Assembly (NCBI GenBank): GCA_951406725.2
Contig: OX597816.1
Span: forward strand, 61,318,001-61,382,000
DNA from: Octopus vulgaris
Taxonomy: Eukaryota
DNA length: 64,000 bases
Reading direction: 5' to 3'
In this document: positions 28,156 through 31,235 of the stretch, piece after piece
Position numbering within the stretch: the stretch's first letter is position 1
How the letters are laid out: each line of letters begins with the position of its first letter
Position numbers: made by a program

Positions 28156-31100
28156 CATACATACATATACATACATATATACATATACTAGCAGAATTGC
28201 CCGGCGTTGCTAGGGGCTGAATTGCTTGAAAGTACTGTTAATGATTGCACTGAATTATGATGATTATTCAGGCAAATATTGATATAAGTTTACGGTGGGA
28301 GATAAGGACTTAACGATCAAACGTGTGCCATTGCATTGTTTTGGGGGAACAAAATTTCTGATGAGCATTATAGGGGCACCAACTTTAAGTTTGAGAAAGT
28401 GTGGTGGTAGTCCGGGGTGCTCAAAGGAATTGAGTACCTCTATTGGATAGTTGATGATGTCCTCTGGGTCAGGAGTTGTATCGATAGACTGATATACATA
28501 GACTTCCCCAGGAATGAGTTTTAGCATTTCATCATTAATATGGTGAACAGTTTTATTCCTCGGGGCCAGTATAGCCTTTTTGCCAATCCAATCCATATTC
28601 TGATAATTAGCTTGTAGATCTGGGAACACTGCATCTCTGAGATCAGAAGGCGTCTTAACAATGGTACAAATGGAATCGATGGCAATATTACCATTTTCAT
28701 CCCCTGGTATTTTGCCTTCGCCAAGTGCAAGGAGGGTGTGAGGAAATGCTGCTGATGTAATATTACGTCGCATATGTGCATGCATATTGGTGTGAAGTTT
28801 GAGAGTTACTTCCCTTTATTAAAAAAATATGCATTAAAATGGAAAAAATGATGGTAAATTATTTGTAAAATCATAGACTCATCGTAGACGTAATACCCAG
28901 AAGGGCTCGATATGAATCACGACTATAAGATACCCGGTTTTGGTTAAACTGCATCCAAAATGTGGTAGATACAAATGGAATCGATGGCAATATTACCATT
29001 TTCATCCCCTGGTATTTTGCCTTCGCCAAGTGCAAGGAGGGTGTGAGGAAATGCTGCTGATGTAATATTACGTCGCATATGTGCATGCATATTGGTGTGA
29101 AGTTTGAGAGTTACTTCCCTTTATTAAAAAAAATATGCATTCAAAATGTGGGAAATAGTTAGGAATCTAAATCGTAGGAGACAGACACACAACTTCACTT
29201 TTATATATAAAGACTAGCAGTATCGCCCGGCGTTGCTCGGGTTTGTAAGGGAAATAACTATATAAGCATTTTTAGAGAGCTACTTCCCTTATAAATTCGG
29301 GCTTTCTTAGCCATTGTTGTTTTGGTGTCTTCAAGCCATGAAGTCGTTGTTCTAAAAGAACGCTGGTTTCCTTCACAATGCATTACGACGTTGATTTCTT
29401 TACACTCCCTTCCCACAGCTTCACGAGGGAGGGAAGGGGGAGAAGCAAACAGGTGCAGCTGTGAGCGTGGACACCAACTCCGCCGCCATCGACATACGAT
29501 GCATTTTATGCATTAAAATGGAATAAAAAATGATGTTAAATTATTTTTAAAATCGTAGACTCATCGTTGACGCGCGCTAATAGTCAGACGGGCTCGATAT
29601 GAATCACGACTACAAGATACCCGAATTTGGTTAAACTGCACCGCAAAATGTGGGAGGAGTTAGGAATCTAAATCGAAGAGGACAGACACTCACACAACTA
29701 GAGTTTTATATATATAGATATTTTCGTCCTAAAAAACTTTGTATGGATTGAATGGTTACCTCTATGGAAATATATACACGCACATTATACATACATGTGT
29801 GTATAGATGAATATATAAATACATTTAAATATCTATATACACTTTTGGGCGATCTTTCTGTTTCTTAGAGATAACTTTAGATCTTATTTTCGTCCTAAAA
29901 AACTTTGTGTGGAGTGAATGGTTACCTCTATGGAAATATATACACACACGTTATACATATTATGTACAGATGTATGTATAATGTGTGTGTATATATTTCC
30001 ATAGACGTAACCATTCACTCCACACAAAGTTTTTTAGGACGAAAATAAGATCTAAAATTATCTCTAAGTAGCACAAAGATCGCCCAAAAGTGTATATAGA
30101 TATATAAATGTATTTATATATTCATCTATGCACACATGTATGTATAACGTGTGTGTATATATTTCCATAGAGGTAACCATTCACTCCATACAAAGTTTTT
30201 TAGGACGAAAATAAGATCTAAAGTTATCTCTAAGAAACAGAAAGATCGCCCAAAAGTGTATATAGATATTTATATGTATTTATATGTATTTATATATTCA
30301 TCTATACACACATGTATGTATAATGTGCGTGTATATATTTCCATAGAGGTAACCATTCAATCCATACAAAGTTTTTTAGGACGAAAATATTTATATATAA
30401 AAGAAAGGTTGTGTGTCTGTCTACTCCGATTTAGATTCCTAACTACTCCCACATTTTGCGATGCAGTTTAACCAAAACCGGGTATCTTATAGTCGTGATT
30501 CATATCGAGCCCTTCTGGGTATTAGCGCGCGTCTACGATGAGTCTATGATTTTACAAATAATTTACCATCAATTTTTTTCCATTTTAATGCATATTTTTT
30601 TTAATAAAGGGAAGTAACTCTCAAACTTCACACCAATATGCGTGCTCATATGCGACGTAATATCACATCAGCAGCATTTCCTCACACCCTCCTTGCACTT
30701 GGCGAAGGCAAAATACCAGGGGATGAAAATGGTAATATTGCCATCGATTCCATTTGTACCATTGTTAAGACGCCTTCTGATCTCAGAGATGCAGTGTTCC
30801 CAGATCTACAAGCTAATTATCAGAATATGGATTGGATTGGCAAAAAGGCTATACTGGCCCCGAGGAATAAAACTGTTCACCATATTAATGATGAAATGCT
30901 AAAACTCATTCCTGGGGAAGTCTATGTATATCAGTCTATCGATACAACTCCTGACCCAGAGGACGTCATCAACTATCCAATAGAGGTACTCAATTCCTTT
31001 GAGCACCCCGGACTACCACCACACTTTCTCAAACTTAAAGTTGGTGCCCCTATAATGCTCATCAGAAATTTTGTTCCCCCAAAACAATGCAATGGCACAC

Positions 31101-31235
31101 GTTTGATCGTTAAGTCCTTATCTCCCACCGTAAACTTATATCAATATTTGCCTGAATAATCATCATAATTCAGTGCAATCATTAACAGTACTTTCAAGCA
31201 ATTCAGCCCCGAGCAACGCCGGGCAATTCTGCTAG

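What the first reader, a model, noticed from the sequence alone, without database searches (positions are those of the whole stretch)
28188..31235. 3-kb palindromic composite: fold-back core symmetrically capped by outward-facing Helitrons
Seen: a core of 166-bp units inverts near 29965 and is truncated at the same base (..gacgaaaata) on both sides. At each truncation point a Helitron 5' end begins. Both outer ends are Helitron 3' CTAG termini embedded in TA-rich microsatellite. The Pif1 arms are nearly identical, but the two core-proximal 5' ends (B and C) differ, so one simple inverted duplication does not explain it. Inference: either Helitrons repeatedly target the ends of an undescribed fold-back element, or rolling-circle replication with template switching made a composite palindromic unit that could itself be mobile or yield long hairpin dsRNA.
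Basis: partly seen in the sequence, partly recalled or inferred. Interest (0 to 1): 0.75.

Follow-up and report, generated by a model that had tools for sequence, protein, structure and literature searches.

The report
Mirrored Helitrons around a folded minisatellite
Three decayed rolling-circle transposons (Helitrons) lie as a near mirror image around a short inverted block of 166-bp repeats, most simply a local fold-back duplication later disturbed by one more Helitron insertion, so it is a neat example of known processes rather than a new kind of element.

Summary
Window 28188-31235 is a 3,048-bp quasi-palindrome. A core of 166-bp units inverts at about 29965/29966. Each core end (..GGACGAAAATA, at 29719 and 30389) abuts a Helitron 5' end. 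Both outer ends are Helitron CTAG termini followed by T in TA-rich microsatellite.

- C, 505 bp.
- A', 1,026 bp, with an internal template-switch duplication.

The right half holds one Helitron, R (846 bp), which lacks the 5' TC.

R and A' are non-autonomous deletion derivatives. Each keeps a 183-aa Pif1 2B-domain fragment. The closest named relatives are Octopus proteins at 78% identity.

The outer 166-bp units match 166 of 166. The arm bodies match 775 of 781. The 58-bp Helitron heads match only 52 of 58.

Best reading (confidence about 0.5): one ancestral minisatellite|Helitron junction was mirrored by a fold-back duplication. C then inserted canonically at the A|T formed by the flank and the first base of A'. 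The divergent heads are not explained by this.

Independent, targeted insertions at both bases of a fold-back are not excluded (about 0.2). Nothing supports mobility of the composite. No genome-wide, read or RNA data could be reached. Interest is modest.

The parts
20203..28187 (.). Left flank: approximately 8-kb (TACA/TATA)n microsatellite that abuts the left Helitron 3' end
   Evidence: TRF. GC is 0.13-0.17.
28188..29213 (-). Helitron A' (1,026 bp), non-autonomous. The 5' end TCTTTATATATAAAAG starts at 29213. The 3' CTAG is at 28191-28188 and is followed by T. In coordinates of the right element (r = position - 30389) its make-up is: head r1 to about r66, then about r187-369, then filler TCTA, then about r51-846.
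28264..28815 (-). 183-aa open frame, a fragment of the Helitron Pif1-like helicase (left copy)
   Evidence: Pfam Pif1_2B_dom E = 1.7e-14. 181 of 183 identical to the right copy. Both differing residues are the derived state in this copy.
28970..29148 (-). Extra copy of 28665-28841 inside A' (internal duplication). Short shared motifs sit at both breakpoints: CATTTT, and CCATTTGTA / CCACATTTTG.
   Evidence: 177 of 177 identical to 28665-28841, with two 1-nt gaps. 175 of 178 identical to the right element. Direct repeat D7.
29214..29718 (-). Helitron C (505 bp), a different non-autonomous subfamily. The 5' TC is at 29718-29717 and is preceded by A. The 3' CTAG is at 29217-29214 and is followed directly by the TC of A'.
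   Evidence: Head 47 of 58 and r57-205 137 of 149 identical to R. The 3' part has no counterpart in R by BLAST. The 70-bp stretch 29213-29282, which covers its 3' end, is 95.7% identical to the Helitron end at 36577-36645.
29719..29965 (-). Left half of the core: one full 166-bp unit (29719-29884) and a partial inner unit (29885-29965)
29960..29972 (.). Centre of symmetry: 13-nt spacer holding the palindromic hexamer TGTACA (29963-29968). It lies in the TG/CA-rich, hairpin-prone segment of the unit.
   Evidence: pair I4. In one search, 29930-30002 folds at -25.8 kcal/mol, z = -10, and 0 of 200 shuffles fold as well. folds single units.
29966..30389 (+). Right half of the core: partial inner unit (29966-30047), middle unit (30048-30213) and outer unit (30214-30389, with a 10-bp slip at 30267-30295)
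30390..31235 (+). Helitron R (846 bp), non-autonomous. The 5' end TTTATATATAAAAG has no TC. The 3' CTAG is at 31232-31235 and is followed by T.
30608..31159 (+). 183-aa open frame, a fragment of the Helitron Pif1-like helicase (right copy)
   Evidence: Pfam Pif1_2B_dom E = 1.7e-14. Best named relative is an Octopus bimaculoides protein at 78% identity. Many further hits carry Helitron_like_N together with PIF1. Its place in full-length RepHel proteins is shown.
31236..31264 (.). Right flank: (TA)14.5, followed by unique sequence
   Evidence: TRF.

Best explanation
This is a local quasi-palindrome built in steps from ordinary parts.

Step 1 (inferred). A short array of 166-bp repeats lay next to a TA-rich microsatellite. 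A non-autonomous Helitron lay with its 5' end against the repeat end (..AAAATA|T) and its 3' end (CTAG|T) in (TA)n. That Helitron was an internal-deletion derivative keeping about 550 bp of the Pif1-like helicase gene.

Step 2 (inferred). The block [repeats + Helitron] was copied in inverted orientation by a fold-back or template-switch event.
- The inner switch point lies in the hairpin-prone TG/CA segment of a repeat unit, at TGTACA.
- The outer switch point can hide in the (TA)n tract, which is its own reverse complement.
- That is why both outer borders look like clean Helitron 3' ends in TA repeats, and why both core ends stop at the same base.

Step 3. The anatomy is shown; the order of events is inferred. 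In the left copy a second, different Helitron (C, 505 bp) inserted canonically between the flank A and the first T of the resident element. This gave the head-to-tail CTAG|TC junction.

Step 4. The anatomy is shown; the mechanism is inferred. The left resident element acquired an internal duplication with short shared motifs at both breakpoints. One 166-bp unit was gained or lost, and a 10-bp slip arose on the right.

Step 5 (not explained). The first 58 bp of the two mirrored Helitrons differ at 6 positions, and the right one lacks TC. I provisionally put this down to a short conversion or repair patch.

The locus has no demonstrated function. If transcribed through, it would fold into a long double-stranded RNA.
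For: - The two halves align collinearly across the repeat|Helitron junction: 30139-30594 against 29959-29507, 91% over 463 columns.
- The outer repeat units match 166 of 166, apart from a 10-bp slip. In the alignment they share several variants that the middle unit lacks. The two inner partial units share a variant of their own (CACTCCACAC).
- The Helitron bodies match 775 of 781 and 635 of 640 ungapped.
- Both amino-acid differences between the arms are the derived state in the left copy. All 8 homologs keep the R of NMR. At the V/I site 3 of 8 have V, 5 of 8 have A and none has I. Both changes are CpG to CpA. This fits decay in place after the split.
- C is bounded by A on its 5' side and by T on its 3' side, the T being the first base of A'. 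Exactly this configuration, with the same two readings of it, is described for dissimilar adjacent maize Helitrons. Perfect head-to-tail junctions in a bat genome are cited in the same passages (PMC2267711, passages).
- The centre lies in a segment that forms a hairpin in single units (-7.5 kcal/mol, 3 of 200 shuffles as good; the two other units are weaker, z = -0.8 and -2.1). The centre also holds TGTACA. [quoted passage not shown]
- A preference of Helitron insertion for AT-rich DNA, strongest on the 3' flank, is documented for Helraiser (PMC4778049, passages). This explains the TA tracts at the 3' ends.
- The structural asymmetries are a 505-bp element, an approximately 245-bp duplication block and one extra 166-bp unit. 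A strand-switch read artefact would not produce these.
Against: - Divergence is not uniform along the arms, as a single recent mirror duplication would predict. Heads match 52 of 58, bodies 775 of 781 (Fisher p = 5.7e-5), outer repeats 166 of 166, inner partial repeats 77 of 81.
- Reading the alignments by eye, element C agrees with A', not R, at 3 of the 6 head differences. The other 3 are uninformative. So R's head looks like the odd one.
- Yet by the same reading R keeps the state seen in C at all 4 differences in r57-205. This mosaic needs an extra, undemonstrated conversion or repair event.
- R lacks the canonical 5' TC.
- The scheme needs at least five events.
- No second copy of the 166-bp unit, no empty site and no orthologous locus could be examined. 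The order of events rests on parsimony alone.
Confidence: 0.5

Rival explanations
1. Independent, targeted insertions. A fold-back of 166-bp repeats existed first in the TA-rich tract. Helitrons then integrated separately at the first A|T at each of its two bases: R on the right, then A' and later C on the left. The base of an extruded hairpin or cruciform would offer single-stranded AT-rich DNA to the HUH nuclease.
For: - The three Helitron heads next to the core all differ: R vs A' 52 of 58, R vs C 47 of 58, C vs A' 50 of 58. This is natural if they came from different source copies.
- C is in any case a separate insertion at that same A|T. So the site was used at least twice.
- Removing all Helitrons restores A|T junctions on both sides.
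- The Helraiser authors discuss single-stranded DNA as the substrate, and melting of AT-rich DNA (PMC4778049, passages).
- The core forms a very stable hairpin.
Against: - It needs a coincidence or an undescribed targeting rule. There are 14 AT steps in the first 30 nt of the right flank, 9 in the first 30 nt of the left flank, and 2,864 in the left microsatellite. Yet both sides were hit at the same repeat base, within 2 nt.
- R lacks the TC expected of a clean insertion.
- The 99.2% identity of the bodies and the 166 of 166 identity of the adjoining repeats are explained at no cost by duplication.
- C's position is equally explained by the known habit of landing at the 5' A|T of a resident Helitron.
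Confidence: 0.2
2. The 166-bp array is a family-linked neighbour of this Helitron family, as minisatellites are for some Helitron and Helentron families. Different copies would then carry the same array|TC junction. The palindrome would come from two such copies lying head to head, joined by recombination within the arrays.
For: - Minisatellites tied to Helitron-type elements are known. 166-bp minisatellite arrays lie on both ends of the Heli2Xen autonomous copy in Xenopus (PMC12001565, passages).
- Cg170 arrays with shared junction nucleotides lie inside oyster Helitron-superfamily elements (PMC5139131, passages).
- It would explain different heads with the same junction.
Against: - Here the array lies outside the TC 5' termini, not between an element's own ends.
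- One other element with a readable 5' side could be examined. It ends at 36644 and shares its 3' end with C, and it has no such array upstream.
- The Helitron 3' terminus at 17953 was read, but its 5' end was not located. It therefore says nothing on this point.
- No other copy of the unit lies in the 64 kb.
Confidence: 0.12
3. The palindrome was made during Helitron rolling-circle replication by strand switching, and moves or moved as a composite unit.
For: - Both outer borders are exact Helitron 3' termini followed by T. Deleting the whole 3,048 bp would rejoin TA-rich repeat to (TA)n.
- The internal duplication in A' has the look of template switching.
Against: - The composite has no outward-facing 5' terminus. 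The left terminal sequence was essential for Helraiser transposition (PMC4778049, passages).
- Only one copy lies in the window.
- The asymmetries show that later, ordinary events shaped it.
Confidence: 0.07
4. Assembly artefact: a fold-back chimeric read or a mis-join next to an 8-kb microsatellite.
For: The locus abuts a long low-complexity array. Palindromes are a known product of strand-switch artefacts (my own knowledge, not from a call).
Against: - The halves are not simple mirror copies. The left has an extra 505-bp Helitron and an approximately 245-bp duplication block. The right has an extra 166-bp unit and a 10-bp slip.
- The arms differ at 5 of 640 positions, with a CpG-decay pattern.
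- Unique sequence continues on the right.
Confidence: 0.05

Closest known systems
Adjacent, dissimilar head-to-tail Helitrons (maize r1 region; perfect head-to-tail junctions in Myotis lucifugus as cited there). Du et al. 2008, PMC2267711, passages read.
   Same: - The CTAG of one element is followed directly by the TC of the next, a G/T junction.
- The two elements are unlike each other, so they are not a rolling-circle concatemer.
[quoted passage not shown]
   Different: Here the pair forms one arm of a palindrome, and the upstream flank is a repeat unit. No population data exist to order the events.
Fold-back inversions and inverted duplications primed by short hairpins and resolved by template switching. 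Yeast, PMC7467729, passages read. Origin-dependent inverted-repeat amplification: PMC4689423 and 10.1101/2023.07.03.547456, search listing and start of abstract only.
   Same: - Two arms in inverted orientation with a short spacer (13 nt).
- The centre lies in a short hairpin-forming sequence.
- The second junction lies in a sequence with homology, here TA repeats.
   Different: - Those are experimental gross rearrangements or triplications.
- This is a small interstitial two-armed structure in a natural genome.
- Its arms are not uniformly diverged.
Minisatellite or satellite arrays tied to Helitron-superfamily elements. 166-bp arrays of Heli2Xen in Xenopus: PMC12001565, passages. Cg170 with Helitron-N2_CGi in oyster: PMC5139131, passages. 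PMC7492417: abstract start only.
   Same: - A short array of units about 166 bp long lies physically joined to Helitron sequence.
- The junctions are abrupt and fall at a repeated nucleotide.
   Different: - There the arrays lie inside the element or bound an autonomous copy, and they recur genome-wide.
- Here the array lies outside the TC termini and is inverted on itself.
- It has no second copy in the window. No sequence comparison with those repeats was possible.
Foldback (FB-type) transposons with long inverted arms made of tandem subrepeats (recalled from general knowledge; no paper read).
   Same: The 671-bp core (29719-30389) is two inverted arrays of a tandem unit with a short spacer.
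   Different: No target-site duplication, no transposase and no further copy could be shown. The arms have unequal unit numbers (about 1.45 against 2.5).
Inverted-repeat transposon pairs as sources of long double-stranded RNA edited by ADAR. 10.1101/2020.01.19.911685, passages read.
   Same: Young inverted repeats from transposons. The paper reports repeat classes, Helitrons among them depending on species, with editing density above the genome average. It reports octopus with the highest editing rate among its sampled taxa.
   Different: No evidence here that the locus is transcribed.

Membership tests
Helitron (canonical TC...CTRR type) | 5' terminus TC | tested here: met
   C starts TCTATATATATAAAAC at 29718. 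A' starts TCTTTATATATAAAAG at 29213. See the next row for R.
Helitron (canonical TC...CTRR type) | 5' terminus TC, in the right-hand element R | tested here: not met
   R begins TTTATATATAAAAG at 30390. It reads TA if the boundary is moved 2 nt inward. It otherwise aligns with A' from the third base on.
Helitron (canonical TC...CTRR type) | 3' terminus CTRR | tested here: met
   CTAG at 28188-28191 (minus), 29214-29217 (minus) and 31232-31235 (plus). The 18-nt terminal pattern gives 7 matches in the window against 0.05 expected.
Helitron (canonical TC...CTRR type) | Short hairpin about 10-12 nt upstream of the 3' end | tested here: inconclusive
   A short GC stem (CCCG..CGGG region) ends 11 nt before the terminus in R, A' and C. 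The predicted folds are weak: -4.5 to -6.1 kcal/mol, z = -0.6 to -1.0, and 27 to 54 of 200 shuffles fold as well.
Helitron (canonical TC...CTRR type) | Insertion between host A and T without target-site duplication | tested here: met
   - R has A (30389) before it and T (31236) after it.
- C has A before it and T after it, the T being the first base of A'.
- A' has T after its 3' end. Its 5' neighbour is the G of C, as expected if C came second.
- No flanking duplication is visible.
Helitron (canonical TC...CTRR type) | Rep/helicase (RepHel) coding sequence or a remnant of it | tested here: met
   - 183-aa frame with Pif1_2B_dom, E = 1.7e-14.
- 440 longer relatives at E <= 0.001. Many of the 120 listed carry Helitron_like_N (PF14214) with PIF1.
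- The fragment aligns to the helicase part of full-length proteins and is cut at both ends.
- No Rep domain is present, so the elements are non-autonomous.
Helitron (canonical TC...CTRR type) | Many copies in the genome, with empty sites in other individuals | not testable with these tools
   No eukaryote genome collection was open. Within the window, related 3' termini occur at 17953-17970 and 36627-36644.
Foldback-type transposon (for the 671-bp core) | Long inverted arms built of tandem subrepeats | tested here: met
Foldback-type transposon (for the 671-bp core) | Target-site duplication at both ends | not testable with these tools
   Both ends abut Helitron 5' ends. Beyond those lies TA-rich repeat, in which a TA duplication could not be recognised.
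Foldback-type transposon (for the 671-bp core) | Further copies elsewhere | tested here: inconclusive
   There are no other copies in the 64-kb window. BLAST hits outside the locus fall only in the TA/CA-rich microsatellite. The end motif occurs without mismatch only at the 5 unit ends of this locus. The genome could not be searched.
Helitron-borne minisatellite (Cg170 / Heli2Xen type) | The array lies between the element's own 5' and 3' termini, or bounds an autonomous copy | tested here: not met
   The array lies upstream of the TC ends of C and R and outside all three elements. No autonomous element is in the window.
Fold-back inverted duplication | Inverted arms with a short spacer and a short inverted repeat or palindrome at the centre | tested here: met
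   13-nt spacer, TGTACA at 29963-29968, and a hairpin-prone unit segment.
Fold-back inverted duplication | Uniform divergence along the two arms | tested here: not met
   166 of 166, 77 of 81, 52 of 58 and 775 of 781 in successive segments. Heads against bodies give p = 5.7e-5.

The most novel reading that the evidence does not exclude
The base of an extruded DNA hairpin is a preferred landing site for Helitrons. The fold-back of 166-bp repeats would act as a two-sided trap. The RepHel nuclease would integrate at the first A|T of the single-stranded AT-rich DNA at each base of the hairpin. This would give three separate insertions (R, A', C), all with their 5' ends toward the hairpin. If so, palindromes flanked by outward-facing Helitrons should recur in this genome. 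Helitron target choice would then have a structural component not yet described.
Probability: 0.15. Interest if true: 0.7.

Novelty: new member of a known kind. Interest (0 to 1): 0.3.

Why it matters
As read here, the locus is a clean natural example of three things:
- Helitrons pile up at each other's 5' ends.
- TA-rich microsatellites and short hairpin-prone repeats can turn a transposon insertion into a long, nearly perfect inverted repeat.
- Such a repeat holds perfect duplex runs of 300 and 245 bp.

Inverted repeats of this kind are the raw material for hairpin RNAs, small-RNA loci and ADAR substrates. The source is probably a cephalopod, a group noted for heavy RNA editing, so a young 0.8-kb-armed palindrome is a reasonable candidate substrate. 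That is only a possibility until expression is checked.

If the minority reading is right, the locus would point to structure-directed target choice by a eukaryotic HUH transposase. That could be tested with the existing Helraiser system.

Tried and rejected
1. R as a recombinant of C and A'. A deletion between the two tandem 5' regions would give R a C-type head. R's head is closer to A' (52 of 58) than to C (47 of 58), and it lacks the 4 extra bases of C. Rejected.

2. C|A' as a rolling-circle concatemer. The two elements share only the first roughly 210 bp (81-92% identity) and the last roughly 30 bp. Rejected.

3. Searching the Helitron 5' motif with one mismatch. The search gave 1,659 hits, essentially all in TA microsatellite. 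Uninformative.

4. The duplex-run part was void. I compared 641 with 640 bases, an off-by-one error. It was redone correctly. The Fisher tests and AT counts stand.

5. Looking for near-identical protein fragments that would show a young multi-copy family in the same genome. The best hits were 78% among longer proteins and 57% among proteins of similar length. No copy from the same genome was seen, so the test says nothing either way.

6. Context. None of the 37 further open frames tested passed its Pfam cut-off; one weak HTH_28 match, E = 0.0045, lies below its cut-off. There are no Rfam families at gathering score.

7. Literature search for a described cephalopod satellite of this kind. Nothing relevant appeared among the 12 papers listed.

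8. The O. vulgaris repeat-annotation paper (PMC13282606, passages) lists Helitrons. In the passages found it does not use the words satellite, palindrome or hairpin.

9. Not done because no tool reaches it: any search of the source genome, reads or RNA. Supplements of the papers were not opened.
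Full report
**What is there**

I read 27600-31800 and mapped repeats. From left to right the locus is:
- A (TACA/TATA)n microsatellite from 20203 to 28187.
- Helitron A' on the minus strand, 29213 down to 28188 (1,026 bp).
- Helitron C on the minus strand, 29718 down to 29214 (505 bp).
- A block of 166-bp repeats in minus orientation, 29719-29965: one full unit and a partial one.
- The same repeats in plus orientation, 29966-30389: a partial unit and two full units.
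- Helitron R on the plus strand, 30390-31235 (846 bp).
- (TA)14.5, then unique sequence.

Read on the minus strand, the left side shows ..GGACGAAAATA | TCTATATATATAAAAC ... GATACTGCTAG | TCTTTATATATAAAAG .... So C and A' lie head to tail, with CTAG touching TC. The right side shows ..GGACGAAAATA | TTTATATATAAAAG ... CTGCTAG | T.

The 18-nt 3'-terminal pattern occurs 7 times in the window against 0.05 expected. Three of the seven are at this locus.

**The Helitron identity**

R and A' each carry a 183-aa open frame with a Pif1 2B domain (E = 1.7e-14). The two frames match at 181 of 183 residues.

The closest named relatives are Octopus bimaculoides proteins at 78% and 72% identity. Many more distant hits are long proteins carrying the Helitron_like_N and PIF1 domains.

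In an alignment with eight of these proteins, the fragment covers only the middle of the helicase and is cut at both ends. R and A' are therefore internal-deletion derivatives of an autonomous Helitron, not captured host genes. From the named hits I infer that the window comes from a cephalopod, probably an octopod. This is an inference.

C shares the first roughly 210 bp with R (47 of 58, then 137 of 149) and the last roughly 30 bp. It has a different interior. The 70-bp stretch 29213-29282, which covers its 3' end, is 95.7% identical to another Helitron end at 36577-36645.

The 3' hairpins are short and not distinguishable from shuffled sequence. The geometry fits the family: the stem ends 11 nt before the terminus.

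**How alike are the two halves?**

| Segment | Match |
|---|---|
| Outer 166-bp units | 166 of 166, plus one 10-bp slip on the right |
| Inner partial units | 77 of 81 |
| First 58 bp of the Helitrons nearest in kind (R vs A') | 52 of 58 |
| Rest of R (r57-846, r = position - 30389) vs A' | 775 of 781, with three small indels |
| Final 640 bp | 635 of 640 without gaps; perfect runs of 300 and 245 bp |

The head differs from the body far more than chance allows (Fisher p = 5.7e-5).

A' is rearranged. It consists of head r1 to about r66, then about r187-369, then four filler bases, then about r51-846. The repeated piece matches its twin in A' at 177 of 177 and matches R at 175 of 178. It therefore arose from the left copy or its lineage. 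Both breakpoints carry short shared motifs, which suggests template switching.

Both amino-acid differences between the arms are the derived state in the left copy. Both are CpG to CpA changes.

**The centre**

The arms 29719-29959 and 29973-30213 leave a 13-nt spacer, and TGTACA (29963-29968) sits at the axis. The stretch 29930-30002 folds as a single hairpin at -25.8 kcal/mol, and 0 of 200 shuffles fold as well.

The centre falls in the TG/CA-rich part of the unit. In single units this part can form a hairpin by itself. The strongest unit gives -7.5 kcal/mol, with 3 of 200 shuffles as good. The two others are weaker, at z = -0.8 and -2.1.

**Reading**

The alignment of the two halves runs straight across the repeat|Helitron junction, and the repeat units next to the junction are identical. 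The shared truncation point is therefore most simply one ancestral junction copied in mirror image.

The clean outer borders need no special explanation either. (TA)n is its own reverse complement, so a second template switch inside it would leave exactly 'CTAG followed by TA repeats' on both sides. This step is inferred.

Two published observations fit:
- Fold-back inversions primed by short hairpins and resolved by switching to a homologous template are documented in yeast (PMC7467729, passages).
- A Helitron preference for AT-rich DNA, strongest on the 3' flank, is documented for Helraiser (PMC4778049, passages).

C is flanked by A and by the first T of A'. It can therefore be a later, fully canonical insertion at the 5' border of the resident element. 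Du et al. described just such dissimilar head-to-tail Helitrons in maize and offered this reading as one of two. They also cite perfect head-to-tail junctions in a bat genome (PMC2267711, passages).

If the arms have only diverged since the duplication, 6 of 781 differences would mean roughly a million years. This uses the scale from the O. vulgaris repeat paper, a Jukes-Cantor distance of 0.09 for about 25 million years (PMC13282606, passages). The figure is rough. It assumes a similar rate and no gene conversion.

**What does not fit**

The heads do not fit. Reading the alignments by eye, C agrees with A' at 3 of the 6 positions where R and A' differ, and the other 3 are uninformative. R also lacks TC.

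Yet in r57-205, by the same reading, R keeps the state seen in C at all 4 differences. R thus looks ancestral in its body and odd in its head.

A short conversion or repair patch would account for this, but I cannot show one. This mosaic is the main reason my confidence in the fold-back reading is only about 0.5.

**Rivals**

- Independent, targeted insertions at both bases of a pre-existing fold-back (about 0.2). This explains the different heads and is mechanistically attractive for a nuclease that works on single strands. It needs an undescribed rule: there are 14 and 9 AT steps within 30 nt of the two outer borders and 2,864 in the left microsatellite.
- A family-linked minisatellite (about 0.12). 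166-bp arrays bound a Xenopus Helitron (PMC12001565), and Cg170 arrays sit inside oyster Helitron-type elements (PMC5139131). But here the array lies outside the TC ends. The one other element whose 5' side could be read, ending at 36644, has none.
- A composite that moves as a unit (about 0.07). It lacks an outward 5' end, and that end was essential for Helraiser.
- An assembly artefact (about 0.05). This is unlikely, because the halves differ by a 505-bp element, an approximately 245-bp block, a 166-bp unit and a 10-bp slip.

**Consequence**

As RNA, the 3,048 nt would fold at -2,155.6 kcal/mol. In that fold 765 of 781 left-arm bases pair with the right arm, and 244 of 247 left core bases pair with the right core.

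Whether the locus is transcribed is unknown. No gene or RNA family was recognised nearby. A preprint reports that transposons, Helitrons among them in some species, are favoured editing targets. It reports octopus with the highest editing rate among its sampled taxa (10.1101/2020.01.19.911685, passages).

**Limits**

No eukaryote genome, read set or RNA data was reachable. Protein searches found no copy from the same genome. No paper supplements were opened.

**Verdict**

The locus is a new instance of known kinds of event: non-autonomous Helitrons, head-to-tail adjacency and fold-back duplication at hairpin-prone and TA-rich repeats. One unexplained detail, the divergent heads, keeps a more interesting targeting hypothesis alive at low probability.

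Noticed in passing
window 55204-55242: A perfect 18+18-nt palindrome with a 3-nt loop. Each arm fits the Helitron 3'-terminus pattern (GCYGGG..AT..TGCTAG, 3 mismatches to R and C), and each CTAG is followed outward by T. Read on either strand it looks like a Helitron 3' end: an 8-bp stem, then 6 nt, then CTAG. It may be a family whose whole terminus is palindromic, or a remnant of another outward-facing pair.
   Followed up: partly
window 20203-28187: An uninterrupted (TACA/TATA)n microsatellite of about 8 kb, with GC 0.13-0.17 and a strong C-over-G skew. It is unusually long, and it is a likely trouble spot for assembly and replication.
   Followed up: partly
window about 36262-36645 (+): Another short non-autonomous Helitron. 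It ends in the same 3' terminus as element C (95.7% identity over 70 bp) and is followed by T. It starts near TCTATATAAACGG. It shares a 45-bp block with the 5' region of R (88.9%).
   Followed up: partly
window 17953-17970 (-): A further Helitron-type 3' terminus (GCTGGGCTATGCTGCTAG, followed by T) of a more distant family. Its 5' end was not located.
   Followed up: no
window 38055-38696, 42205-43555, 46823-50777, 56637-60107: Several dispersed inverted repeat pairs, with arms of 65-184 nt at 81-92% identity. They are probably copies of short interspersed repeats. None approaches the 99% of the studied arms.
   Followed up: no
window 4837-5190 (+): An open frame with a weak helix-turn-helix match (HTH_28, E = 0.0045, below the Pfam cut-off). 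It may be a decayed DNA-transposon remnant.
   Followed up: no
window 29261-29513: The interior of element C, which has no counterpart in R, holds a GC-rich stretch with a short inverted repeat (CCCTTCCCTCCC...GGGAAGGGAG) and two open frames of 84 and 73 aa without Pfam matches. It may be a captured host fragment.
   Followed up: partly
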